62,601 nt of DNA, from positions 1 to 62,601 of the forward strand of contig CAVYCN010000016.1 of NCBI GenBank assembly GCA_963767005.1. The letters are read 5' to 3'. This document shows positions 19,060-34,335 of the stretch, piece by piece (position 1 is the stretch's first letter; each line of letters begins with the position of its first letter). The translations under genes were made by a program, and so were the position numbers. The notes beneath the pieces are model-generated. The model was not told the DNA's origin and searched no databases. It worked only from the letters and a program-made list of their open reading frames with translations. The stretch is from an uncultured Actinomycetes bacterium (lineage in GTDB: Bacteria > Actinomycetota > Thermoleophilia > UBA2241).

Positions 19060-19200
19060 CCCCTGCCGCGCTTTCCCAACTCCCCTCTCCACCCTCGCCC
19101 GCGCATCGGCGTCGCGCGTCGCGGTAGGCTGCGCCCGTAGCGACCGAGTGCTCACGCGAGACGATTGACAGGAGATGCGTTGACACGTATATATGAAAAC

Positions 19201-19614
19201 ATGCAAATACGCGAAGACGTCACTACCTCTATCGCGGCACCCGCGGCGGCCGACCTCCAGCCCGTCTTCCACGCGCACGCCGAGCTCTGCAAGGCGCTCG
19301 CCAACGAGCACCGCCTGGCCATCCTCTACACGCTGAGCCAGGGCGAGCGCTGTGTCGGCGACCTCGCCACCGAGATCGGCATCTCCGTGCACAACGTCTC
19401 GCAGCATCTCCGCCTGCTCAAGGAGCGGCGTCTGGTGCAGTCGCGCAAAGAGGCCCAGACCGTCTACTACTCGATCACCAACCCCAAGTTCATCCAGGGC
19501 TGCACGCTCATCCGTCAGGCCCTGATCGAACAGCACCAGGCCCAGGGGCAGTCACTGCTCGCAGCCGAGCTGCTCGACGCCGTCCAGCGCCTGCCGTTGC
19601 CTATGGCGGAGTAA
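19201..19614 (+). CDS. ArsR/SmtB-family regulator (BigR/SqrR-like)
   Basis: CKALANEHRLAIL...ERCVGDL...NVSQHL...VYY...GC. TTGACA boxes and an AT-rich operator lie at 19165-19210. Confidence 0.85.
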   Translation: MQIREDVTTSIAAPAAADLQPVFHAHAELCKALANEHRLAILYTLSQGERCVGDLATEIGISVHNVSQHLRLLKERRLVQSRKEAQTVYYSITNPKFIQGCTLIRQALIEQHQAQGQSLLAAELLDAVQRLPLPMAE

Positions 19615-19744
19615 CCGGGTCACCCCTCGCCCTCCGGCCCGGAGGGCTCGCACGTCAAGACCAGCCGACCAAGGGGGCAGCAGCCCCACGGCACGCCGCC
19701 CTTGTGAACCAAAGCACAAGGGGCGTCGACAGAAGGAGAGAGCC

Positions 19745-19996
19745 ATGGCGGAAGACTTGAGCACGATCCAGGCGGAGAAGATCGTGGACGCGCGCGGCAC
19801 CTCGTGCCCCGGGCCCATCCTGGCGGCCAAGAAGGGCATCCCCGGCGTGAGTGTGGGTGGTGTCATGGAGGTCCAGGCCACCGACACCGGGACCACGAAA
19901 GACCTGCCGGCCTGGGCCAAGAAGATGGGTCACGAGTTCCTCGGCGTGGTCGAGGAGCCCGGCTACATGCGCCTCTTCGTCAAGAAGATGAAGTGA
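19745..19996 (+). CDS. tusA: TusA-family sulfur carrier
   Basis: VDARGTSCPGP. Confidence 0.9.
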   Translation: MAEDLSTIQAEKIVDARGTSCPGPILAAKKGIPGVSVGGVMEVQATDTGTTKDLPAWAKKMGHEFLGVVEEPGYMRLFVKKMK

Positions 19997-19998
19997 TC

Positions 19999-20436
19999 AT
20001 GGCGGAGGCTCAGGCAGACGAGGGCCAGGCCTACGCGCCGCGCATCCTGGTCTTCAGCACCAACAACATCTCCGATCCCGGCATCGACCTGGCCGGCAGC
20101 TCGCATCTGCACTACTCGCCCCAGGTCACGGTGATCAGCCTGCCCTGCACGAGCGGCATCAAGCCGAGCTGGGTGCTGTACGCCATGGAACAGGGTTTCG
20201 ACGGCGTGTTCGTAGCGGCCGACGGCGACGAGTGCGCGTACCTGCCGGACTGCAGCGAGCGCACGGCCGCCATCATGACGCGGGCGCAGAAGCTCCTCGA
20301 GGAGCACGGCTTCGCGCCGCAGCGCGTGCGCATGGCGGCCATCTGCTCGGTGTGCGCCGAGCCCTTCACCAACTACATGCACGAGTACTCGAGGTCCCTG
20401 GCAACGCTCGGACCCTCCCGGAAGGCGACCGCATGA
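19999..20436 (+). CDS. mvhD: MvhD/FlpD-like iron-sulfur subunit
   Basis: LPCTSGI...GFDGVFV..DG.EC.Y...RVRMAAICSVC. Confidence 0.8.
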   Translation: MAEAQADEGQAYAPRILVFSTNNISDPGIDLAGSSHLHYSPQVTVISLPCTSGIKPSWVLYAMEQGFDGVFVAADGDECAYLPDCSERTAAIMTRAQKLLEEHGFAPQRVRMAAICSVCAEPFTNYMHEYSRSLATLGPSRKATA

Positions 20437-23141
20437 AGTACGACGCTCTCGTGGTGGGCAGCGGCATCGGCGGCATGGAGTCGGCCCTCAAGCTCGGCGA
20501 CATGGGCTACAAGGTGCTCGTGGTCGAGAAGGAACCGAGCGTGGGCGGCAAGATGATCCTGCTCAGCAAGGTCTTCCCCACGCTTGACTGCGCAAGCTGC
20601 ATCTCCACGCCCAAGATGGGCGCCACCATCCACCACCCCAACATCGACGTCCTGACCTACGCCGAGGTCGGCAGCATCCGCGGCGACGGCCAGGGCGGCT
20701 ACCACGCCACGGTCCACCAGAAGCCGAAGTACGTCGACGAAGCCGCCTGCACGGGCTGCCGTCAGTGCGAGATGGCCTGCAACGTGGCGGTCCCGGACGA
20801 GTTCAACGCCGACATGGTGTCGCGGCGGGCGGCCTTCATCGCCTTCCCGCAGGCGGTGCCCAAGAAGGCCGTCATCAGCCGCGAGGGCGTGTCGCCCTGC
20901 AGCTACGAGTGCCCGGCCGGCATCAAGGCGCACGGCTACGTGGCGCGCGTGCGCAGCGGCCAGTACGACGAGGCCTTCGACCTCGTGCTCGAGACGACGC
21001 CGCTCGTCGGCAGCCTGGGCCGCGCCTGCTACGCGCCCTGCGAGGAGCAGTGCACGCGCGGCGAGCTCGAAGGCCCCCTGCCCATCCGCCGGCTCAAGCG
21101 CTTCATCGCCGACCGGCGCTACGGCGGCCGGGGCGGCGACGCACGCCCGACGCCCGAGCGGCCCGAGCCGAACGGCCACCGGGTGGCCGTCGTGGGATCG
21201 GGCCCGGCCGGCCTCACCGCGGCCTGGCAGCTCGCCCGTCAGGGCTACGCCGTGAAGGTCTTCGAGGCGGCGCCGCAGCCGGGCGGCATGCTGCGCCTCG
21301 GCATCCCCGCCTACCGCCTGCCGGGCGACGTCGTCGACGACGACGTCGCCAACGTCACGGCGATCGGCGTCGAGATCGAGACCGGCGCGCGCGTCGACGA
21401 TCCGCTCGCCCTCAAGGACCGCGGCTTCGACGCCGTGCTCGTGGCGACCGGCACGCACCGGGCCGTGCAGCTGCGCGTGTCCGGCGAGGAGCTCGAGGGC
21501 GTGCAGAGCGCGCTCGCGTTCCTGGCCGACGTCAAGCTCGGCAAGCCCGTCGACGTGGCGGGCCGCAAGGTCCTCGTGGTCGGCGGCGGCAACGTGGCGA
21601 TCGACGCCGCCCGCACCGCCCGCCGTCTGGGCGCCGCCTCGGTCGACCAGGCCAGCCTCGAGTGCTGTGAAGAGATGCCGGCCCACGACTTCGAGGTCGA
21701 GGAGGCGCGCGCCGAGGGGATCACGCTGCACGACGGCTGGGGCATCGACCGCTTCATCGGCGACGGCCGCGTACAGGGCGCCGAGCTCAAGGTCTGCACC
21801 TGCGTGTTCGACCCCGAGGGGCGCTTCCACCCCGAGTACGACGAGGCGCAGCGCAAGAGCCTGGCTTGCGACCTCGTGATCGTGGCCGCCGGCATGATGG
21901 CCGACACCGACTCGTTCGGCCTCGATGCCAACGGCAACCGCACGCTGAAGGCCGACCCCGGCACGCTGCAGACGGCGGTGCCGCACGTCTTCGCCGCCGG
22001 CGACGTCGTGACGGGACCGACGATGATCACGACAGCCGTCGGCCAGGGCCGCCGCGCGGCCTTCATGATCGACCGCTACGTGCGCGGTGAGGCCCTCGAT
22101 GCCGCGGCGTTCGACGGGCCGCTCGCCGCGGTCGACAAGGAGGCCGTGCTCGCCCGGCAGGACGTCTACGACCGGCGCGAGCCGCTCGAGTCGCACGTCG
22201 CGATGAGCGCGGCGCCCGACGACTTCGCCGAGACCGAGAGCCCGCTCACCGAGGACGAAGCCTTCCTGGCCGCCGCGCGCTGTCTCGACTGCGGCGTGTG
22301 CTCGGAGTGCCACGCCTGCGTCGACGCCTGCCCGGCGGACGCCATCAAGCTCGACATGCGCGGCGAGGACATCGAGGTCGACGTCGGCGCGGTCGTCCTG
22401 GCGACCGGCTTCAAGCTCTTCCCTGCCGACGCCAAGCCGCAGTACGGCTACGGCCGTTTCAAGAACGTGATCACCGGCATGCAGATGGACCGCCTGCTCG
22501 CGCCCACGCGCCCCTACAACGCGGTGCTGCGCCCGGGCGACGGCAAGGTGCCCGACAACATCGCCTACATCATGTGCACCGGCTCGCGCGACGAGACGGT
22601 CGACAACCCGCTCTGCTCCAAGATCTGCTGCATGTACTCGGTCAAGCAGAACCAGCTCATCATGGGCGCCCTGCCGCTCGCCGACGTGACCGTCTACTAC
22701 ATCGACGTGCGCTCGGTCGGCAAGGGCTACGACGAGTTCTACCGGCAGGCCAGGGACATGGGCGCCAACTTCGTCAAGGGCCGCGTCTCGGGGGTCACCG
22801 AGACCGACGAGGGCAACCTCGTGCTGCGCTACGAGGACATCGAGAACGGCGGCGCGCTCACCGAGGCCGAGCACGACATGGTCGTGCTTGCCGTCGGCGT
22901 GCAGCCCAACCGCGAGGTCGCCGGCCTGTTCGAGGACGGCGCGCTCGGCCTCGACGACCACTTCTACGTCGGCGAGGCCGACGAGGACATCGACCCCGGC
23001 CGCACCAACCTGCCGGGCGTCTTCGTCGCCGGGTCGGCGGCGGGGGCCAAGGACATCCCCGACTCCATCCTCCACGCGGGCGCCGCGGTCGCCCAGGCCG
23101 CCGCCCATCTGGAGCGCGCGAAAGTGAAGGTGCACGCATGA
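20433..23141 (+). CDS. hdrA: HdrA-like flavoprotein with an inserted GltD-type NAD(P)H module (HdrL-like)
   Basis: GSGIGG, KVFPTLDCASC, CTGCRQC. Insert with CSYECP, GRACYAPCEEQC, GSGPAG and GGGNVA. CTGSR...CSKICC. Confidence 0.85.
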   Translation: MKYDALVVGSGIGGMESALKLGDMGYKVLVVEKEPSVGGKMILLSKVFPTLDCASCISTPKMGATIHHPNIDVLTYAEVGSIRGDGQGGYHATVHQKPKYVDEAACTGCRQCEMACNVAVPDEFNADMVSRRAAFIAFPQAVPKKAVISREGVSPCSYECPAGIKAHGYVARVRSGQYDEAFDLVLETTPLVGSLGRACYAPCEEQCTRGELEGPLPIRRLKRFIADRRYGGRGGDARPTPERPEPNGHRVAVVGSGPAGLTAAWQLARQGYAVKVFEAAPQPGGMLRLGIPAYRLPGDVVDDDVANVTAIGVEIETGARVDDPLALKDRGFDAVLVATGTHRAVQLRVSGEELEGVQSALAFLADVKLGKPVDVAGRKVLVVGGGNVAIDAARTARRLGAASVDQASLECCEEMPAHDFEVEEARAEGITLHDGWGIDRFIGDGRVQGAELKVCTCVFDPEGRFHPEYDEAQRKSLACDLVIVAAGMMADTDSFGLDANGNRTLKADPGTLQTAVPHVFAAGDVVTGPTMITTAVGQGRRAAFMIDRYVRGEALDAAAFDGPLAAVDKEAVLARQDVYDRREPLESHVAMSAAPDDFAETESPLTEDEAFLAAARCLDCGVCSECHACVDACPADAIKLDMRGEDIEVDVGAVVLATGFKLFPADAKPQYGYGRFKNVITGMQMDRLLAPTRPYNAVLRPGDGKVPDNIAYIMCTGSRDETVDNPLCSKICCMYSVKQNQLIMGALPLADVTVYYIDVRSVGKGYDEFYRQARDMGANFVKGRVSGVTETDEGNLVLRYEDIENGGALTEAEHDMVVLAVGVQPNREVAGLFEDGALGLDDHFYVGEADEDIDPGRTNLPGVFVAGSAAGAKDIPDSILHAGAAVAQAAAHLERAKVKVHA

Positions 23142-24877
23142 GCGGCCGCAGGATCGGTGTCTACGTCTGCCAGTGCGGCGGCAACATCGGCGACTACGTC
23201 GACGTCGACAAGGTCGTCGCCGCGGTGGAGCACGACCCCGACGTCGAGGTCGCTCGCAGCGCGATGTTCACCTGCTCCGACGCGACGCAGCAGGAGATCG
23301 TGCAGGACGCCCACGAGAAAGGCCTCGACGCGCTCGTCGTGGCCTCGTGCTCGCCCAAGCTCCACACGATGACGTTCCGCGACGTCGCCAGACGAGCGGG
23401 CCTGAACCCGTTCCAGTACACCCAGGTGAACATCCGCGAGCAGTGCTCGTGGACGCACACCGACGACCACGAGGGGGCGACCGAGAAGGCGCTGCGCCTC
23501 GTGCGCGCCGGCATCAACCGCACCCGGCTCACCGAACCGCTCGAGCCCATCGTCGTCGAGACCACGCCCAGGAGCCTGGTAGTGGGCGGCGGCATCGCCG
23601 GCCTGCGGGCCGCGCTCGGCCTGGCCGAGATCGGGCTCGCCGTGTTCCTCGTCGAGAAGGAGGATCGGCTCGGCGGCTGGGTGGCCGGTTTCGGCACCAT
23701 GTACCCCAACGGCCGCAACGGCGCCGAGATGATCGCGCGACTCGAAGCGGCGGTGCGCGCCCACCCGGCGATCACCGTCTTCACGAACGCCGAGCTCGTC
23801 GCCAAGGGCGGCAGCTTCGGCAACTACGAGGTGACGGTGGCGCTGCAGGGCGAGCGCCTCGAGACCGTGCGGCTCGAGGTCGGCTCGGTCATCGTGGCCA
23901 CCGGCTTCGAAGCCTACCAGCCGGCCCCGGGCGAGCTCGGCTACGGTCACGACGGCGTGGTCACCCTGCCCGAGCTCAAGCGCCTGCTCGACGCGTCGGA
24001 CGGCCCGCTCATGCGGGACGGCCGTCTGGTGCAGACGGTCGCCTACATCTACTGCGTGGGCAGCCGCCAGGACGAGGGCGCCGAGGACGCCCACACCTAC
24101 TGCTCGCGCTACTGCTGCACGGCTGCCGTCCACGCCGCGCTCGAGGCGGCCCGCAGGGGCGACCCGGCCCTGCGCCAGTACCACCTTTACCGCGACATGC
24201 GCACCTACGGCAAGTACGAGCTCCTCTGGGGCGAGTCGCGCGAGCAGGGCTCGCTCTATCTGCGCGTGCCCGACGACGAGCCGCCCACCGTCGAGGAGCT
24301 CCCCGGCGGCGGTCTCAAGGTCACGGCCCGCGACCTGCTGACCGGCGGCGCCGAGGTGGCGATACCGGCCGACCTCGTCGTGCTGGTCACCGGCATGGTG
24401 CCGCGCGACAACGACGGCCTGGTGAGCACCCTCAAGCTGCCGGTGGGTCGCGACGGCTTCTTCAACGAGATCCACCCCAAGCTGCGCCCCGTGGAGACGG
24501 TGGTCGACGGCGTGTCCATCTGCGGCGCCTGCCAGTCTCCGAAGAACTCGTCCGAGGCCGTCGCCAGCGGCCTTGCGGCCGTCACGCACAGCGGCGCCAT
24601 GCTCAAGCGCGGCTTCGCCGAGCTCGACCCGATGGTCGCGACGGTCGCGGCCGACGCCTGCACCTGGTGCGGCGCCTGCCGCGAAGCCTGCCCCTACGAC
24701 GCAGTCGCCCAGGTCGAGGCCGGCGACAGGACCGTGGCCGAGGTCGTCAAGACCGCCTGCAAGGGCTGCGGTGGCTGCGTGCCGGTCTGCCCGAGCGACG
24801 CGATCGACCTGCAGGGCTACACCGACGCGCAGGTCAGAGCGATGATCGACGGCTTGCTGGGGGTGAGCTGCGCATGA
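23138..24877 (+). CDS. hdrA: HdrA-like flavoprotein (N-terminal domain, FAD domain, C-terminal ferredoxin)
   Basis: VYVCQCGGNI, CSPKLH, NIREQCSW, GGGIAG, CVGSR..CSRYCC, E.HPKLRPVET and two CxxCxxC motifs. Confidence 0.9.
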   Translation: MSGRRIGVYVCQCGGNIGDYVDVDKVVAAVEHDPDVEVARSAMFTCSDATQQEIVQDAHEKGLDALVVASCSPKLHTMTFRDVARRAGLNPFQYTQVNIREQCSWTHTDDHEGATEKALRLVRAGINRTRLTEPLEPIVVETTPRSLVVGGGIAGLRAALGLAEIGLAVFLVEKEDRLGGWVAGFGTMYPNGRNGAEMIARLEAAVRAHPAITVFTNAELVAKGGSFGNYEVTVALQGERLETVRLEVGSVIVATGFEAYQPAPGELGYGHDGVVTLPELKRLLDASDGPLMRDGRLVQTVAYIYCVGSRQDEGAEDAHTYCSRYCCTAAVHAALEAARRGDPALRQYHLYRDMRTYGKYELLWGESREQGSLYLRVPDDEPPTVEELPGGGLKVTARDLLTGGAEVAIPADLVVLVTGMVPRDNDGLVSTLKLPVGRDGFFNEIHPKLRPVETVVDGVSICGACQSPKNSSEAVASGLAAVTHSGAMLKRGFAELDPMVATVAADACTWCGACREACPYDAVAQVEAGDRTVAEVVKTACKGCGGCVPVCPSDAIDLQGYTDAQVRAMIDGLLGVSCA

Positions 24878-25167
24878 CGACGACGAACGGCAACGGCCAC
24901 CACACCGCCGTGAGAACGGCGGCACCCGGCCAGCGCGACCCGCGCGAGATCGTGCGCGACGAGCAGGTCATGCGGCGCCGTATCCTGGCCGCCCTGGCCG
25001 CCGGCCCGCTCACCGTGCCCGAGATCGCCGCGGCACTCGAGTGCCCGGCGCACGAGGCCATGGTCTGGGTCATGGGGCTGCGCAAGTACGGCTGGGTGGC
25101 CGAGATCAAAGAGGTCACCGACGACGGCTACTTCCGCTATCGGGTGGCCGAGAGGGAGGGCTCATGA
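24874..25167 (+). CDS. Small winged-HTH protein
   Basis: ILAAL..GPLTVPEIA..L......W.MGLRKYG. ATGA coupling on both sides. Confidence 0.75.
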   Translation: MTTTNGNGHHTAVRTAAPGQRDPREIVRDEQVMRRRILAALAAGPLTVPEIAAALECPAHEAMVWVMGLRKYGWVAEIKEVTDDGYFRYRVAEREGS

Positions 25168-25469
25168 CGACGATCGTGAACCCCGGCCTCGCGTCGGAGC
25201 TCGCGCGCTCCGACGACTTCAACGCCGACGCCTGCATGAACTGCGGCGTGTGCTCGGCCATCTGCCCCATGGAGCTCGAGGTGCAGCCGCGTGTGCTGTT
25301 CCGCTACGTCCTGCTCGGCATGGAGGACCAGGTGAGAGCCGAGACCGAGCACGTCTTCTCGTGCCTGCTCTGCAAGCTCTGCGAGGAGAACTGCCCTTGG
25401 GGCGTGCGCATCGCCGACAACGTGCGCACGCTGCGTCACCACATCAACCGCACCGTCCACGGTCTCTAG
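25164..25469 (+). CDS. hdrC: HdrC-like 2x[4Fe-4S] protein
   Basis: CMNCGVCSAICP and CLLCKLCEENCP. Confidence 0.85.
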   Translation: MTTIVNPGLASELARSDDFNADACMNCGVCSAICPMELEVQPRVLFRYVLLGMEDQVRAETEHVFSCLLCKLCEENCPWGVRIADNVRTLRHHINRTVHGL

Positions 25470-25475
25470 GAGGAG

Positions 25476-26453
25476 ATGGCCATGCCCCTACCGACCGGCG
25501 ACGTCATCGGCATCCTGGGCGACAACCTGCGCATCCGCGGGTCGGTCCTGCCGCTCTCGAGGAGAGTGGCGACGAAGTGGACCGAGGGCCTCGACCTGCC
25601 GCGTGGCGGCGAGACCGTCCTGTACACCGGGATGATGTACCAGCTCATCCCGTACATCGAAGGCCTCGTGAAGGCCGAGCAGCGCCTCGGCGACTCGTCA
25701 CTCGCGAAGTGGACCGGGCTGGGCCGCGCGGTCAACCGCGTGATCAACCTGTCGGCGTTCATGGCGCGGCCCTCGGCCGCCGAGCGCGCCCTGTTCGATC
25801 GGGTGCCGATCAACGTCGTCCATCTGCTGCGGGCGGCCGGGGTCGAGTTTGGCGCCCTCTACGAGGATGACCTCTACTCCGGCGCTCTGGCCTACGACTT
25901 GGGCCTGGACGAGGTCTTCGCCGAGCACGCCCGGCGCGTGGCGGCGACGCTGCGTCGGCGTGGTGTGCGGCGGGTCATCACGATCGACCCGCACACCACG
26001 AACATGCTGCGCAGCGTCTACCCCAAGGTCCTCGACGGCTTCGAGGTCGAGGTGCGCAGCTACCTCGAGGTGCTCTGCGACCGGGGTCTCAAGTCGAACG
26101 GCCACGGCGGCGGGCGCCTGTCGGGCGACGTGGCCGTGCACGACTCGTGCGTCTTTGCCCGCTACGAGGGGCTCGTCGACCAGCCGCGTGAGCTGCTGGC
26201 CGCCACCGGCCTCACGCTCCACGAGCCCGAGCACGCCGGTCGCCAGACCTGGTGCTGCGGCGGCCCCGTCGAGTCGCTCTATCCGGCCAAGGCGGCCGCC
26301 AACGCGGCCCGTCGCGCCGGCGAGCTCAGTGCCGCCGCGAGCGAGGTCGTCACGATGTGCCCCATGTGCTACGTCAACTTGAGCGGAGCCGCCGGCGGCA
26401 CCGTGCGCTTCACCGACATCTCCGAGTATCTACGCAACGCCTGCGCATCCTGA
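25476..26453 (+). CDS. CCG-domain protein (HdrB/HdrD/GlpC-like)
   Basis: HDSC...WCCGG...CPMC in the C-terminal domain. The N-terminal CCG domain is degenerate (YSG, DPHT). Confidence 0.8.
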   Translation: MAMPLPTGDVIGILGDNLRIRGSVLPLSRRVATKWTEGLDLPRGGETVLYTGMMYQLIPYIEGLVKAEQRLGDSSLAKWTGLGRAVNRVINLSAFMARPSAAERALFDRVPINVVHLLRAAGVEFGALYEDDLYSGALAYDLGLDEVFAEHARRVAATLRRRGVRRVITIDPHTTNMLRSVYPKVLDGFEVEVRSYLEVLCDRGLKSNGHGGGRLSGDVAVHDSCVFARYEGLVDQPRELLAATGLTLHEPEHAGRQTWCCGGPVESLYPAKAAANAARRAGELSAAASEVVTMCPMCYVNLSGAAGGTVRFTDISEYLRNACAS

Positions 26454-26468
26454 AAGGAGCCTGGGACC

Positions 26469-26999
26469 ATGGAGGAGCAGACTCAGACCGTGCCCGCGGC
26501 TACCGACGAGGGCCACGTCGCCACGAGCAAGAAGACGATCATCGTCTTCAGCGGCGACTTCGACAAGATGATGGCTGCCTTCATCATCGCCAACGGCGCC
26601 GCCGCGATGGGCGACGACGTCACCATGTTCTTCACCTTCTGGGGCCTGAACGCCCTGCGCCGCCCCGAGAAGGTGTCGGTGAAGAAGCCCAAGAGCACGC
26701 TGCAGGCCATGTTCGGCCGCATGATGCCGCGCGGGCCGAACAAGCTCGGCCTATCGAAGATGAACTTCGCCGGCGTGGGCGCGCCCCTCATGAAGAAGGT
26801 CATGAAGGACAACCACGTGATGACCCTCGACGAGCTCATCGCCACGGCCAGGGAGCAGGAGATCAAGCTGGTCGCCTGCACGATGTCGATGGACGTCATG
26901 GGGCTGCGCGAAGAGGAGCTCATCGACGGCCTCGAGTTCGCCGGTGTCGGCTCATATCTGGCCGAAGCCGACGAGGCCAACGTCAATCTCTTCATCTGA
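26469..26999 (+). CDS. DsrE/DsrF/DrsH-like sulfurtransferase (DrsE_2/YrkE type)
   Basis: FSGDFDK, MFFTFWGL, ACTMSMD. Confidence 0.9.
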   Translation: MEEQTQTVPAATDEGHVATSKKTIIVFSGDFDKMMAAFIIANGAAAMGDDVTMFFTFWGLNALRRPEKVSVKKPKSTLQAMFGRMMPRGPNKLGLSKMNFAGVGAPLMKKVMKDNHVMTLDELIATAREQEIKLVACTMSMDVMGLREEELIDGLEFAGVGSYLAEADEANVNLFI

Positions 27000-27015
27000 G
27001 CGGAGCGGAGGAACC

Positions 27016-27426
27016 ATGGGCAAGCTGGTCATCGGTCTCGCGAGCGGCAGCCTCGAGCGGCTCCTCGTGACGAGCACGGTCACGGGCGGCGCGGTCGCCC
27101 TCGATATGGACGTCGACATCTATCTGCTGCTGGGCGGCGCCTACGCCTTTCGCAAGGACGTCGCCGGCAAGGGCGGCTACACCGACCGCCCCGAGCTCGC
27201 CGACGAGCTGGCGACCGGCATGGCCGCAAGCGCGGTGCCGGCGCCCCTCGACAACCTGCGCAAGCTCAAGGCCGACGGCAACGTGCACGTCCACTGCTGC
27301 GGCACGGCCGGCAAGATCTGGGGCGCCGGTGCGCTCGACGATTTCGTCGACGTGGTCGACGACATCGTCGGCATCGCCGAGTACATCACGAGCTGCGAGG
27401 CCGCCGACGTCGTCCAGGTGCTCTGA
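27016..27426 (+). CDS. Second DsrE-like protein
   Basis: SGSLERL...VDIYL...VHVHCCG...DDIVGI pattern. Confidence 0.75.
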   Translation: MGKLVIGLASGSLERLLVTSTVTGGAVALDMDVDIYLLLGGAYAFRKDVAGKGGYTDRPELADELATGMAASAVPAPLDNLRKLKADGNVHVHCCGTAGKIWGAGALDDFVDVVDDIVGIAEYITSCEAADVVQVL

Positions 27427-27457
27427 GCCCGCGGCTCGAACTACCGCCACGACGCTC

Positions 27458-27799
27458 ATGTCCGAGCAGTCCAGCGATCACGCCGCCGCCCAGCCGGCGG
27501 CGTGGCATGCCGAGGCGGCGCTCTGTCGGGTTCTCTCCGACGAGACCCGGCTCGGCATGCTCGCCGCCCTCGCGGCCGGCCCGTTGTCGGTCACGGAGCT
27601 CTGTCGGCGTCTCGGCCTGCCCCAGTCCACCGCCTCGCGCCACCTCAAGGTCCTCCGTGACCAGTCTCTGGTGGTCGCGACGCGTGACGCCCAGCGGGTG
27701 CTGTACCGCCTGCGGGACCGCCATCTGCTGAAAGTGATCGCCGTGCTCGACCGCTATCTCGCCTGGACCGGCGCCATGGGACGAGGAGCGCTCCCGTGA
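27458..27799 (+). CDS. ArsR-family regulator
   Basis: LSDETRL.ML..L...PLSVTEL...QSTASRHL. Confidence 0.85.
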   Translation: MSEQSSDHAAAQPAAWHAEAALCRVLSDETRLGMLAALAAGPLSVTELCRRLGLPQSTASRHLKVLRDQSLVVATRDAQRVLYRLRDRHLLKVIAVLDRYLAWTGAMGRGALP

Positions 27800-32095: not shown

Positions 32096-32422
32096 TTACG
32101 CTTTGACGATCTCGATCGCGACGTCGGCCGGCAGGGCCAGGCCGGCCGCCACACGCAGCGCCTTGAGCGCCGCGGCCGGCACGATACAGTCGATGCAGAC
32201 ACCGGTACCGCTACCTGGGGTCAGCAGCCGGCTGGGCACCCGCGGATCGATCTCGGCGTAGGCGTCGAGCGGCTCGTCGGCGGCCAGGCGGGCCGCGTAG
32301 CGCTCGATGTTGTCGCAGGTCGTCTCGACGGCGAACGACACGGCCCGGCCGTCGCTCGTCTCAGCCCGCAGTGTGGTGTCGTGGCCGCAGATACCGGCCT
32401 TCACGTGCGCGGTGCCGTTCAT
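32096..32422 (-). CDS. Conserved Cys-containing hypothetical protein (DUF6951-like)
   Basis: GICGH.T...TTC...CIVP...KA..VAAGLALP.DV.I. Confidence 0.7.
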   Translation of the reverse strand: MNGTAHVKAGICGHDTTLRAETSDGRAVSFAVETTCDNIERYAARLAADEPLDAYAEIDPRVPSRLLTPGSGTGVCIDCIVPAAALKALRVAAGLALPADVAIEIVKA

Positions 32423-32461
32423 GCGATGCGTCGTCCTTTCACGGTCCGTACTGGTCGAGGG

Positions 32462-33085
32462 TCAGCGGCGCGCATGCGCGGCCTGTCGTGCCGCGGCCGT
32501 GACGCACGGCCTGGCCGCCACCAGGGCGAGATGGTACGGCAACAGTGTGCCCGGCTCGTGGGCCGCGCGCTCGTCGAGGCCCATGCCGGCCACGATCTCG
32601 CGCACCCGCCCGAGACCGAGGACATGCCCCGGCGGCGGCCCCACGGGCCGCTCGACGTCGGCCCAGTCGACGACCACGAACAGGCCGCCGGGGCGCAGCA
32701 GGCGCGTGACCTGGGCGAGCGCCGCGGGCTGGTCGTAGAGATGGTGCAGCACGTCGACCATCACCACCCGGTCGGCGACGCCGTCGGGCGCCGGCACCTC
32801 GTTCGCGGCGGTCTCGACGACCTCGACCCGGGCGGCGAGCTCGGAGGTGAGTCTGGCGCGCAGCGCGTCGGCCAGCTCGGCCAGCGCCTCGACTGCGATC
32901 AGCCGCCCGCGCGGCAGCGCCGCCGCCATGGCGACGCTGTAGACACCGGTGCCGGCGCCGTAGTCGACCACGGTCTCGTCGCCGGCGAGGCGCAGCAGCG
33001 ACACGACGACGGCCGGCGGCAGGGCCTCGAGGCGCTCCGCCGCCTCGAGGTTGTGCGCATGCGTGGGGTCGAACGCGTCGGCCAT
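32462..33085 (-). CDS. Class I SAM-dependent methyltransferase
   Basis: DYGAGTG, LRPGG, GPP. Confidence 0.85.
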   Translation of the reverse strand: MADAFDPTHAHNLEAAERLEALPPAVVVSLLRLAGDETVVDYGAGTGVYSVAMAAALPRGRLIAVEALAELADALRARLTSELAARVEVVETAANEVPAPDGVADRVVMVDVLHHLYDQPAALAQVTRLLRPGGLFVVVDWADVERPVGPPPGHVLGLGRVREIVAGMGLDERAAHEPGTLLPYHLALVAARPCVTAAARQAAHARR

Positions 33086-33513
33086 CAGCCGAGGGCCGCC
33101 ACGACCCGAGCGAAGCGCAAAGCGACCTCGCCGGCGACGGCGTCGAGCACGGGATTCTCGATCCCGCCGAGCATGCTGCGCGGGTCGACGGCGCGCACCA
33201 GGACGGCCGGGCCGTCCTCGTAGACGACCACGTTGCAGGGCAGGAACACGCCGAGGTCGGGCTCGGCCTCGAGGGCCTTGTGGGCGAGCGGCGGGTTGCA
33301 GGCGCCGATGATCAGGTAGCGGCCGCGCTCGACGCCGAGCTTCTCGCGCAGCGTCGCCTGCACGTCGATCTCGCACAGCACGCCGAAGCCCTCGTCCTTG
33401 AGCGCCGCCTTCACGCTCGCCACGACCTCGTCGAACGGCGCCTGCAGGGTCGTGCCGATGGCGTAGTCGGGCACCGGCGCGACGCCGTCGCGGGCCGTCT
33501 TCTCAGCGGCCAT
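33085..33513 (-). CDS. DUF302 protein
   Basis: GFGVL.EID, GACNP, LPCNVVV. Confidence 0.9.
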   Translation of the reverse strand: MAAEKTARDGVAPVPDYAIGTTLQAPFDEVVASVKAALKDEGFGVLCEIDVQATLREKLGVERGRYLIIGACNPPLAHKALEAEPDLGVFLPCNVVVYEDGPAVLVRAVDPRSMLGGIENPVLDAVAGEVALRFARVVAALG

Positions 33514-33917
33514 CAGACGGCCACCGGTGCGACGGTCGTGATCTCGAACGACGGCGGCCGCTGGAGATGCTTCTTCACCGCGCAGAGGTTCATGGCATTC
33601 ACGATAGCGTCACGGTACTTGTCGGGGAAGCCGGCCGGCAAGCGCAGCTCCAGGTCGATGCGGCCGATCATGCCGGACGCGGGGTCGACGTGTGGCCGCA
33701 GCGTGAGCTCGGAGCCGGCCGGGTCGAGGCCGCGCTGCTGCATGAAGCCGAGCGCGTAGATGCCGGCGCAGGTCCCGATCGACGCGAGGAACAGGTCGAA
33801 CGGCGCGGGCGCCGAGTCGTCGCCACCGCCGCCGGCCGGCTGGTCGGTCTTGACCGTGAACCCCGCCCAGTCGGCGTAGACCCGCTTGCCGCCCGGAAAG
33901 TACACCCTCATCTCCAT
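33513..33917 (-). CDS. OsmC-family protein
   Basis: TDQP..GGG..SAP.PFDLFLAS.GTCAG...CAVKKH. Confidence 0.9.
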   Translation of the reverse strand: MEMRVYFPGGKRVYADWAGFTVKTDQPAGGGGDDSAPAPFDLFLASIGTCAGIYALGFMQQRGLDPAGSELTLRPHVDPASGMIGRIDLELRLPAGFPDKYRDAIVNAMNLCAVKKHLQRPPSFEITTVAPVAV

Positions 33918-33965
33918 CACGCCGCTCCTTCTTGGTCGCCGCCCCCGCTGAGGCGTATCGCGACG

Positions 33966-33999
33966 ATTGCCATGTTGCGAAATTTCGAAACTCGGCAAT
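33966..33999. promoter_or_regulatory. Palindromic operator in the divergent osmC/arsR promoter
   Basis: attgcc..gttgcgaaatttcgaaac..ggcaat. Confidence 0.65.
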
Positions 34000-34008
34000 A
34001 ATAGCGCC

Positions 34009-34335
34009 GTGGACACTGACCGACAACGCTACGCCCTGCACGCCGCGGTCTTCGCGGCGCTCGCCAACCCTACCCGGCACGAGCTCATGCACCATCTCTG
34101 CGCCGGACCCCGCACCCCGAGCGAGCTGGCCGACCTGCTCGACGTGAGCCGGCCGAACGTCTCGCAGCACCTCGCCGTGCTGCAGCGCGAGGGCCTCGTG
34201 CGGCGCACGCACGAGGACGGACGGGTGCTCTGGGGCGTCGTCGATCGCCGCCTGTCGCAAGCGTGCGCGCTGATCGACGAGATCCTCGGACACGAGCTGG
34301 CCGAGCGCGCCCGGGCGCTCGCCCAGAACGGCTGA
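34009..34335 (+). CDS. ArsR-family regulator
   Basis: FAALANPTR...NVSQHL...AC. GTG start 34009. Confidence 0.85.
   Translation: MDTDRQRYALHAAVFAALANPTRHELMHHLCAGPRTPSELADLLDVSRPNVSQHLAVLQREGLVRRTHEDGRVLWGVVDRRLSQACALIDEILGHELAERARALAQNG

What the first reader, a model, noticed from the sequence alone, without database searches (positions are those of the whole stretch)
19201..27799. NAD(P)H-linked Hdr complex embedded in a TusA/DsrE sulfur relay under ArsR control
Seen: arsR-tusA-mvhD-hdrA(GltD insert)-hdrA-wHTH-hdrC-CCG-dsrE-dsrE-arsR, mostly ATGA-coupled, with TauE/DUF1634, YeiH and LysR next door. No hydrogenase, Flx, lipoate-binding protein or Dsr genes are in the cluster. Established: TusA and DsrE carry persulfide sulfur, HdrA bifurcates electrons, and the sHdr system of sulfur oxidisers uses lipoate-binding proteins and two HdrB/C pairs. 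Inference: a distinct Hdr type that reduces or oxidises protein-bound persulfide using NAD(P)H via the built-in GltD module, for sulfane-sulfur detoxification or respiration.
Basis: partly seen in the sequence, partly recalled or inferred. Interest (0 to 1): 0.72.

Follow-up and report, generated by a model that had tools for sequence, protein, structure and literature searches.

The report
Sulfur-carrier-linked Hdr/Qmo-type flavoenzyme cassette
A tightly packed gene cluster, kept in the same order in many uncultured bacteria, encodes an iron-sulfur flavoenzyme related to the heterodisulfide reductases of methanogens together with small sulfur-carrier proteins, and it likely uses NADH to reduce carrier-bound sulfur to hydrogen sulfide by a route for which we found no description in print.

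Summary
The genes are real and in the stated order. The core tusA-mvhD-hdrA::gltD-hdrA'-wHTH-hdrC-CCG is intact in 55 of 55 full-context relatives, and dsrE-type genes accompany 53. The second arsR and TauE/YeiH/LysR are local only. The two HdrA proteins are complementary halves of a predicted heterodimer with one bifurcation-type flavin. The GltD site is NADH-type here. (1) 'MvhD' is rewired: two canonical cysteine positions are lost and a new invariant CxxC appears; 79 of 80 such copies lie beside tusA, against 0 of 10 canonical ones. (2) HdrC+CCG is replaced by a membrane QmoC-like protein in 13 of 38 resolved cassettes. So CCG is more likely an electron port than the sulfur-cleaving site. 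Best model: NADH-driven, likely confurcating, reduction of carrier-bound sulfane sulfur at the rewired MvhD; direction is unproven. The host has no Dsr, Sat or AprA match. The parts are known (HdrL/type III HdrA, Qmo swaps); I found no paper describing this cassette. This scan noted it before in other genomes.

The parts
19165..19210 (+). Conserved promoter/operator-like stretch (TTGAC ... GTATAT ... ATGCAAAT) overlapping the arsR start; likely autoregulatory ArsR site (inferred)
   Evidence: Similar motif visible upstream of arsR in most of the 21 related loci printed; not picked up by the consensus scan
19201..19614 (+). ArsR/SmtB repressor with conserved Cys30, Cys51, Cys101 (possible sulfane-sulfur sensor, inferred)
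   Evidence: PF01022; Cys in 30/30, 28/30, 30/30; orthologue in 27 of 55 loci; below the BigR model cut-off
19745..19996 (+). TusA sulfur carrier (CPGP, Cys21); the only TusA-family match in this genome
   Evidence: PF01206; Cys21 in 63/63
19999..20436 (+). Rewired MvhD: MvhD fold; N-terminal cysteines and the first Cys of GCHxGDC lost; invariant Cys50, Cys79, Cys85, Cys116-x-x-Cys119
   Evidence: PF02662; alignment to 5ODC_D; model matches 5ODC_D at TM 0.75; five Cys in 63/63; tusA linkage
20433..23141 (+). HdrA half 1 (HdrL/type III, 902 aa): flavin domain with the inserted ferredoxin split by a GltD/NfnB module; no N-terminal cluster domain and no C-terminal ferredoxin; keeps Cys56 (=Cys197), Lys738 (=Lys409) and Asp686 (=Glu356); 'LE' nucleotide site
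23138..24877 (+). HdrA half 2 (579 aa): N-terminal cluster domain and C-terminal ferredoxin, no inserted ferredoxin; lost the Cys197 equivalent; Lys409->His332, Glu356->Lys281 (predicted non-bifurcating)
24874..25167 (+). 97-aa winged-helix protein, invariant member of the cassette (W-x-M-x-x-R-K-Y-G motif), no conserved Cys; role unknown
   Evidence: 78 of 80 loci; conservation; weak HTH hits
25164..25469 (+). Short HdrC-like 2x[4Fe-4S] protein
   Evidence: TIGR03290 below cut-off; 8 Cys invariant
25476..26453 (+). CCG-domain protein with one five-Cys site (C225, C260, C261, C295, C298); the N-terminal site has no Cys (DPHTT)
   Evidence: PF02754 once; 80/80; nearest solved relative EtfD 9OJN by sequence and fold
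26469..26999 (+). DsrE2-like sulfur carrier (Cys137)
   Evidence: PF13686 at 7e-64; NF047629 below cut-off; Cys in 41/41
27016..27426 (+). Second DsrE-like protein (Cys95)
   Evidence: No Pfam or NCBIfam hit; Atlas DsrE clusters at 0.97; 18 of 80 loci, Cys in 18/18
27458..27799 (+). Second ArsR; local, not part of the conserved cassette
   Evidence: PF01022; 1 of 55 full-context loci

Best explanation
The cluster encodes an Hdr/Qmo-type complex built on two complementary HdrA halves that likely pair into a heterodimer and likely use NADH to reduce sulfane sulfur carried by TusA and DsrE to H2S, with the rewired MvhD as the predicted sulfur-contacting site. Shown: gene order, domain complementarity, conserved residues, the tusA link of the CxxC MvhD, and the HdrC+CCG/QmoC swap. 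Inferred from the methanogen Hdr architecture: one bifurcation-type FAD (half 1) has three ports. The low-potential port (inserted ferredoxin) is plugged by the GltD module and exchanges electrons with NAD(H). The high-potential port runs through HdrC to the single-cluster CCG protein, or to a membrane QmoC in sister cassettes, and likely reaches menaquinone. The mid-potential port (the MvhD arm), normally fed by a hydrogenase, Fdh or Flx, has no such partner here and would serve carrier-bound sulfur. Run in the confurcating direction, one electron from NADH and one from the HdrC arm would be delivered to the MvhD cysteines and release sulfide, giving an electron sink and sulfane-sulfur disposal, likely under control of a cysteine-bearing ArsR.
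For: Synteny 55/55. 13 of 13 matches in a second phylum sample have tusA-CxxC mvhD-hdrA::gltD. Cys197/N-terminal-domain complementarity is invariant (Cys in 65/65 of half 1, none in 76 of half 2), the pattern proposed to mark HdrA heterodimers (PMC9012536). The host encodes both halves fused in a 1488-aa paralogue. Lys409 is kept only in half 1 (69/69 against His70/Asp6); PMC12054007 names it as the bifurcation marker and says GltD would block the ferredoxin site. The CxxC MvhD lies within 600 nt of tusA in 79 of 80 cases, the canonical form in 0 of 10, and the same CxxC occurs in a 31%-identical sister cassette. QmoC-type cassettes (13 of 38; four His nearly invariant) have no CCG site yet keep tusA, MvhD and dsrE. 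Carrier cysteines are invariant. The host has no Dsr/Sir, Sat or AprA match, a futalosine-type menaquinone gene, and separate Mvh-, Flx- and MetFV-linked Hdr loci. 22 of 42 carriers have no haem-copper oxidase match, which fits an anaerobic electron sink.
Against: No biochemical, expression or interaction data. Direction is not determined. With recalled standard potentials (NADH about -320 mV, menaquinol about -74 mV, polysulfide about -260 mV) the confurcating reduction would be roughly 60 mV per electron uphill unless protein persulfides are easier to reduce. SQR-like genes lie within 7 kb upstream in 6 of the 12 carriers that have one, and 20 of 42 carriers have a haem-copper oxidase match; both fit oxidation equally. 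Half 1 carries Asp rather than Glu at the Glu356 position in 44 of 70. DsrE is missing from 2 of 55 loci. No natural TusA-MvhD fusion was found (the two candidates look frameshifted). The MvhD cysteines could simply re-ligate an Fe-S cluster. Loci were selected by similarity and are related, so the counts are not independent.
Confidence: 0.4

Rival explanations
1. Same three-port wiring, run oxidatively: sulfide or thiol sulfur is oxidised on the carriers and the electrons are bifurcated to NAD+ and menaquinone, or sulfane sulfur is oxidised to sulfite as in sHdr and exported by TauE.
For: Works like type II sHdr, whose sHdrB3 binds only one noncubane cluster and whose electrons are proposed to go to menaquinone (PMC11094781). 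SQR-like genes lie close upstream in 6 carriers. Recalled potentials make sulfide -> NAD+ plus menaquinone downhill. TauE lies next door in this genus.
Against: No lipoate carrier in the cluster and only one GcvH-family gene, elsewhere in the genome. No SQR match in the host with the queries used. SQR-like genes are not enriched in carriers (12 of 42 against 13 of 28). TauE is not conserved (3 of 80). Oxidation to sulfite (about -40 mV, recalled) cannot drive NAD+ reduction.
Confidence: 0.22
2. The CCG protein is the catalytic site, as in DsrK: NADH electrons flow GltD -> HdrA -> HdrC -> single noncubane cluster, which cleaves TusA/DsrE persulfide (the mechanism implied by the first reader).
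For: DsrK reduces protein-bound sulfur with one noncubane cluster (PMC10861901). The five ligands and the DPHTT motif are invariant (80/80). HdrC-CCG fusions occur among distant relatives.
Against: DsrK, HmcF and TmcB keep an extra catalytic Cys, whereas this protein has no conserved Cys beyond the five ligands. It is replaced by QmoC in 13 of 38 cassettes, including one in the same genus with 94%-identical TusA. A 39%-identical DPHTT relative sits beside a LutB-type lactate-oxidation gene without Hdr. The nearest structures are EtfD and LutA.
Confidence: 0.18
3. TusA and DsrE are accessory (sulfur supply for cluster assembly, or redox sensing), and the complex is an NAD(H):menaquinone or ferredoxin-coupled oxidoreductase for redox balancing with no sulfur substrate.
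For: Type II Qmo proteins occur without Dsr and Apr and have no known role (PMC10504309). Neighbours include metal/Fe-S handling genes (NifB/NifX-like, DUF134). TusA is common in the class (130 of 201).
Against: The other Hdr loci of the same genome, and the Mvh-linked QmoC cassettes of relatives, carry no tusA. Some cassettes carry two tusA and two dsrE. The MvhD change tracks tusA almost perfectly.
Confidence: 0.15

Closest known systems
HdrL of Desulfobacterium autotrophicum (PMC2702500) / type III HdrA, HdrA9-11 of ANME-1 and Bathyarchaeota (PMC12054007, PMC9012536)
   Same: HdrA with a GltD/NfnB module inserted in the ferredoxin domain, next to an MvhD gene; Lys409 kept; tandem HdrA pair with complementary Cys197 and N-terminal domain.
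   Different: In the passages read, those occur with Fdh, Dsr, Mvh or further hdrA genes; TusA and DsrE were not found in the two ANME papers. Here the MvhD is rewired and the partners are TusA, DsrE, a wHTH and either HdrC+single-cluster CCG or QmoC.
QmoABC / QmoAB-HdrBC / QmoAB-HdrD (PMC10504309)
   Same: Two unequal HdrA-type subunits plus a terminal module that is either membrane QmoC or soluble HdrC/CCG.
   Different: No AprAB or Sat in the host. MvhD is separate and rewired rather than fused to QmoB. A GltD insert and sulfur carriers are present. Both halves fall outside the one apr-linked QmoA/QmoB pair in the tree.
sHdr types I and II of sulfur oxidisers (PMC11094781, PMC4378227)
   Same: Hdr-type flavoprotein clustered with TusA and DsrE carriers; type II has a one-cluster CCG subunit and a proposed route to menaquinone.
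   Different: No LbpA, lipoate ligase, two-cluster sHdrB1, EtfAB or EMO in the cluster. Two large HdrA halves with MvhD and GltD instead of a minimal sHdrA homodimer.
DsrK/DsrC of DsrMKJOP (PMC10861901)
   Same: A single noncubane-type CCG site plus two cubane clusters (split here over HdrC and CCG), beside a protein sulfur carrier.
   Different: No extra catalytic Cys; no DsrM, DsrC or DsrAB; DsrK model score 23.5 against a cut-off of 400.
MvhAGD-HdrABC of methanogens (PDB 5ODC, 8RVU, 7BKB)
   Same: Homologous HdrA, MvhD, HdrC and CCG folds.
   Different: Heterodimer instead of homodimer; no hydrogenase in the cluster; no two-cluster HdrB; altered MvhD ligands.

Membership tests
HdrL / type III HdrA (protein level) | GltD/NfnB domain inserted into the HdrA inserted ferredoxin | tested here: met
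   55/55 loci
HdrL / type III HdrA (protein level) | Lys409 and Glu356 at the flavin | tested here: inconclusive
   Lys738 kept (69/69); the Glu356 position is Asp here (Asp44/Glu25/Gln1 of 70)
Heterodimeric tandem HdrA (PMC9012536 pattern) | [quoted passage not shown] | tested here: met
Methanogen-type HdrABC | HdrB with two CCG motifs / two noncubane clusters | tested here: not met
   one site only, 80/80
Methanogen-type HdrABC | MvhD with canonical cysteines and a donor module (MvhAG, Fdh, Flx, Elp) in the cluster | tested here: not met
sHdr type I/II | Lipoate-binding protein LbpA linked to the cluster | tested here: not met
   none in the cluster; single GcvH-family gene on another contig
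sHdr type I/II | shdrC1B1AHC2B2 or shdrC1B1AHB3-etfAB-emo arrangement | tested here: not met
   gene order against PMC11094781
sHdr type I/II | TusA and DsrE carriers linked to the cluster | tested here: met
sHdr type I/II | Phylogenetic grouping with sHdrA | not tested
   no sHdrA row in the tree; only a phmmer hit to 6TJR, far weaker than to methanogen HdrA
QmoABC / QmoAB-HdrBC | Partner APS reductase (AprAB) and Sat in the genome | tested here: not met
   no Sat match (control rang in 5 of 14); AprA from an apr locus gives only a 26% partial hit; one search had no ringing control
QmoABC / QmoAB-HdrBC | Two unequal HdrA subunits with a swappable QmoC or HdrC/CCG end | tested here: met
   25 CCG, 13 QmoC-like, 6 unresolved of 44; QmoC model 206 bits against a cut-off of 300 for the one sister protein scanned
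QmoABC / QmoAB-HdrBC | Clade with apr-linked QmoA/QmoB | tested here: inconclusive
   outside the tusA-linked clades, but only one Qmo pair was sampled and QmoB is a long branch
DsrK | One CCG motif plus the extra GECGH cysteine | tested here: not met
   one motif, no further conserved Cys
Persulfide-sensing ArsR (BigR/SqrR type) | Cys pair responding to sulfane sulfur | tested here: inconclusive
   three conserved Cys; BigR model 51.8 bits against a cut-off of 155
Flavin-based electron bifurcating enzymes | Coupled turnover of high- and low-potential partners | not testable with these tools
   needs purified enzyme

The most novel reading that the evidence does not exclude
A third kind of sulfur-dissimilating Hdr, independent of Dsr, Apr and lipoate, in which MvhD has been turned from an electron wire into the catalytic site for carrier-bound sulfur. 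Flavin confurcation of NADH and menaquinol would drive cytoplasmic sulfur respiration in about a fifth of the genomes sampled from the host's class and in several other phyla.
Probability: 0.3. Interest if true: 0.85.

Novelty: new variant of a known kind. Interest (0 to 1): 0.62.

Why it matters
What Hdr-type complexes act on in organisms without coenzyme M/B, Dsr or Apr is an open question. This cassette names candidate substrates (TusA/DsrE-bound sulfur), a candidate catalytic site (five invariant cysteines of a small MvhD variant) and two natural versions of the terminal arm. That makes the question testable with small recombinant proteins. The marker is present in 43 of 201 genomes sampled from the host's class and 11 of 251 from another phylum. 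None of the 43 has dsrA, so a sulfur role would be missed by current marker genes.

Tried and rejected
Complex prediction of the MvhD variant with TusA: no answer (score 0.00; no support and no evidence against). RNA runs: no RNA holder was listed. The wide structural search was not run because the machine was busy. Longer forms of MvhD: 30 hits, mostly MvhD-HdrA read-throughs; the two with TusA (P0293, P0317) look frameshifted and were rejected as natural fusions. Plasmid collection: one 35% HdrA hit, not followed up. The metagenome scan with a distant archaeal CCG relative gave 4 loci: one full cassette, one short contig with CCG and tusA, and two without Hdr, one beside a LutB-type gene. 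The promoter/terminator scan found nothing at the arsR start. SQR-like genes and haem-copper oxidase are not enriched in carriers against relatives without the cassette (12/42 vs 13/28; 20/42 vs 11/28). Rejected: TauE/YeiH/LysR and the second arsR as core parts; filing as sHdr, DsrK, Qmo proper or methanogen HdrABC. No cultured carrier was identified (cluster look-up of 10 representatives gave only MAG names). Literature searches that found no description of the cassette; one search returned nothing on sHdrA structure. Appel et al. 2021 (HdrA(BC) module classes), Ernst et al. 2021 and Kümpel et al. 2024 were seen only as citations and could hold a description. No supplements were read; those of PMC12054007, PMC9012536 and PMC10504309 may list such clusters.
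Full report
Observation. The window is contig C16 of a 3.44-Mb genome rated 100% complete; the closest relatives are labelled Thermoleophilia. ORF and family scans confirm arsR (19201-19614), tusA (19745-19996), mvhD (19999-20436), hdrA with a GltD insert (20433-23141), a second hdrA (23138-24877), a wHTH gene (24874-25167), hdrC (25164-25469), a CCG gene (25476-26453), dsrE2 (26469-26999), a DsrE-like gene (27016-27426) and a second arsR (27458-27799). Four of ten junctions are ATGA overlaps, five are 2-31 bp gaps and arsR-tusA is 130 bp.

Conservation. A scan of species genomes with the CCG protein gave 162 relatives, of which the best 80 were kept; titles include Actinomycetota, Chloroflexota, Bacillota and Dormiibacterota. 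In the 55 loci with enough flank, tusA-mvhD-hdrA::gltD-hdrA'-wHTH-hdrC-CCG was present at the expected positions in 55, a dsrE-type gene in 53, an arsR orthologue in 27 and the downstream arsR in 1 (25 shorter loci left out). TauE and DUF1634 were in 3 of 80, YeiH in 1, LysR in none. In an even sample of 201 genomes of the host's class, the CCG protein was in 28 and dsrA in 21 others, with no overlap. TusA itself is common (130 of 201), but in this genome the cluster's copy is the only match. These genomes are kin, so the counts are descriptive.

The HdrA pair. Against solved methanogen HdrA, half 1 has the flavin domain and the inserted ferredoxin, split by a ~410-residue GltD/NfnB module, but no N-terminal cluster domain and no C-terminal ferredoxin; half 2 has the reverse. 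Cys56 of half 1, equivalent to the trans-ligand Cys197, is invariant (65/65) and absent from half 2 (0 of 76). PMC9012536 (passages) proposes this pattern as the mark of HdrA heterodimers. The host carries both halves in one 1488-aa ORF beside mvhD-metV-metF-hdrC-hdrB. The bifurcation-linked Lys409 (PMC12054007, passages) is kept in half 1 (69/69; Glu356 position Asp44/Glu25/Gln1) and replaced in half 2 (His70/Asp6 of 76; Glu356 position mostly Lys/Arg). The GltD nucleotide site reads LE here and in 54 of 67 loci, RR in 13; by the recalled rule for Rossmann folds this predicts NADH here and NADPH in the minority. GltD-inserted HdrA is in print as HdrL (PMC2702500, passages), HdrA9-11 and type III. 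A tree of 63 flavin-core rows (59 different) puts tusA-linked half 1 (22 rows, support 97/97) and half 2 (23 rows, 97/93) in their own clades. These lie apart from the host's Mvh-, Flx- and Met-linked HdrAs and from one apr-linked QmoA/QmoB pair. sHdrA and methanogen HdrA were not in the tree.

MvhD is rewired. The fold is MvhD (model pLDDT 83; TM 0.75 to 5ODC_D), but the N-terminal cysteines and the first Cys of GCHxGDC are gone, while Cys50, 79, 85, 116 and 119 are invariant (63/63). Across all loci then held, 79 of 80 CxxC-type copies lay within 600 nt of tusA; the other is at a contig edge with tusA further on. None of 10 canonical copies did, and 8 partial or unclassified hits were set aside. 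In a 251-genome sample of another phylum, 11 genomes had 13 matches, all with tusA upstream, the CxxC and a GltD-inserted hdrA downstream. In methanogens MvhD passes electrons from hydrogenase or Fdh to the flavin as part of a mobile arm (PMC6019823, PMC12350162; passages); here no such donor is encoded and tusA stands directly upstream. A fold of the pair gave no answer.

The terminal arm is swappable. The CCG protein has one five-Cys site and a cysteine-free N-terminal site (DPHTT, 80/80), which recurs in most of the 150 distant representatives. Its nearest solved relatives are EtfD and LutA, then HdrB. DsrK also has one site but keeps an extra Cys thought to be catalytic (PMC10861901, passages); this protein has none. 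A 39%-identical relative sits beside a LutB-type gene with no Hdr. One QmoC-type cassette is in the same genus, with TusA 94%, HdrL 84% and HdrA' 72% identical. QmoC-type and CCG-type rows are mixed in the tree. The QmoC-like proteins keep eight cluster cysteines and four near-invariant histidines. A more distant sister cassette keeps tusA, the CxxC, the wHTH and QmoC but has a short half 1 without the GltD insert. The same swap is known for Qmo (QmoABC against QmoAB-HdrBC/HdrD), and type II Qmo proteins without Dsr and Apr are noted as unexplained (PMC10504309, passages). Since cassettes without any CCG site keep the carriers, the carriers' partner is more likely the rewired MvhD arm than the CCG protein.

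Host context. There is no nitrite/sulfite reductase domain, no Sat, no AprA beyond a 26% partial hit (one search lacked a ringing control) and no SQR match with two queries. There is one GcvH-family gene elsewhere, two NiFe hydrogenase loci, one haem-copper oxidase and one futalosine-pathway gene. Among 42 other carriers and 28 relatives without the marker, SQR-like genes (12 against 13) and oxidases (20 against 11) show no enrichment, though 6 of the 12 SQR-like genes in carriers lie within 7 kb upstream of the cassette.

Mechanism. Mapping onto the methanogen enzyme gives one bifurcation-type flavin with three ports: NAD(H) at the GltD insert, HdrC-CCG or QmoC towards menaquinone, and the rewired MvhD towards TusA/DsrE-bound sulfur. 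I favour the reductive, confurcating direction (0.40): the host lacks routes to process sulfite, and half the carriers lack an oxidase. Recalled standard potentials do not favour it, and the oxidative direction (0.22), a DsrK-like CCG site (0.18) and an accessory role for the carriers (0.15) remain open. All steps beyond sequence and synteny are inferred.

Known and new. It works like sHdr (carriers beside an Hdr flavoprotein; PMC11094781, PMC4378227, passages) and is built like Qmo, but fails the membership tests for sHdr, Qmo proper, DsrK and methanogen HdrABC. Searches, and passages of PMC8528874, PMC12142623 and PMC13490349, showed no description of this cassette. Appel et al. 2021 was not read and no supplements were read. 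Seven earlier notes of this scan describe the same cassette or its MvhD in other genomes; they are not independent evidence. Verdict: real, widespread, apparently uncharacterised; new variant of a known kind; interest 0.62.

Noticed in passing
G000:C7, C4 (two loci), C18 (L081-L084): The host has four further Hdr loci: a fused 1488-aa HdrL-HdrA with MvhD-MetV-MetF-HdrC-HdrB, a Flx-type Hdr, an Mvh-type Hdr, and a locus with an 1117-aa GltD-bearing HdrA, an 811-aa HdrA-MvhD and a 394-aa HdrC fusion.
   Followed up: partly
L120, L125, L126, L131, L134, L138: Another cassette in relatives, hdrA-qmoC-hdrA-mvhD-mvhG-mvhA, joins a QmoC-like membrane protein to a hydrogenase, with canonical MvhD and no tusA in the stretches fetched.
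   Followed up: partly
L001:12375-19294, L133, L132, L128, L129: A distant sister cassette arsR-tusA-mvhD(CxxC)-hdrA-hdrA-wHTH-qmoC-dsrE without the GltD insert, in L001 and L133 lying convergent with the CCG type.
   Followed up: partly
P0299, P0300, P0301: CxxC-type MvhD fused behind a response-regulator receiver domain.
   Followed up: no
window:54339-62462: por genes followed by NuoE-like, NuoF-like and a 1063-aa protein joining a 2Fe-2S/GltD module to PorB: a 2-oxoacid oxidoreductase apparently wired to an NAD(P)H module.
   Followed up: no
window:27796-32013: DUF5714 (MbdU-like), DUF1634, TauE, YeiH and a YeiE-like LysR; the same block flanks a QmoC-type cassette in a genome of the same genus (L127).
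   Followed up: partly
window:13970-19009 and 32099-34335: Small metal/redox genes around the cassette: zinc ribbon, small ferredoxin-like ORF, glutaredoxin, DUF134, NifB/NifX-like, OsmC, DUF302, a third ArsR.
   Followed up: no
L028, L034, L042, L144: Variants with doubled carriers in front: dsrE2-tusA-dsrE-tusA-mvhD.
   Followed up: partly
L121, L031, L127, L136: SQR-like genes lie just upstream of some cassettes (L121, L127, L136), with a small TusE/DsrC-like ORF (label recalled, no family hit) in L121 and L031.
   Followed up: partly
G000:C10 (L085:4956-9431): A four-subunit soluble NiFe hydrogenase with an NAD-binding subunit (sulfhydrogenase-like; label recalled).
   Followed up: no
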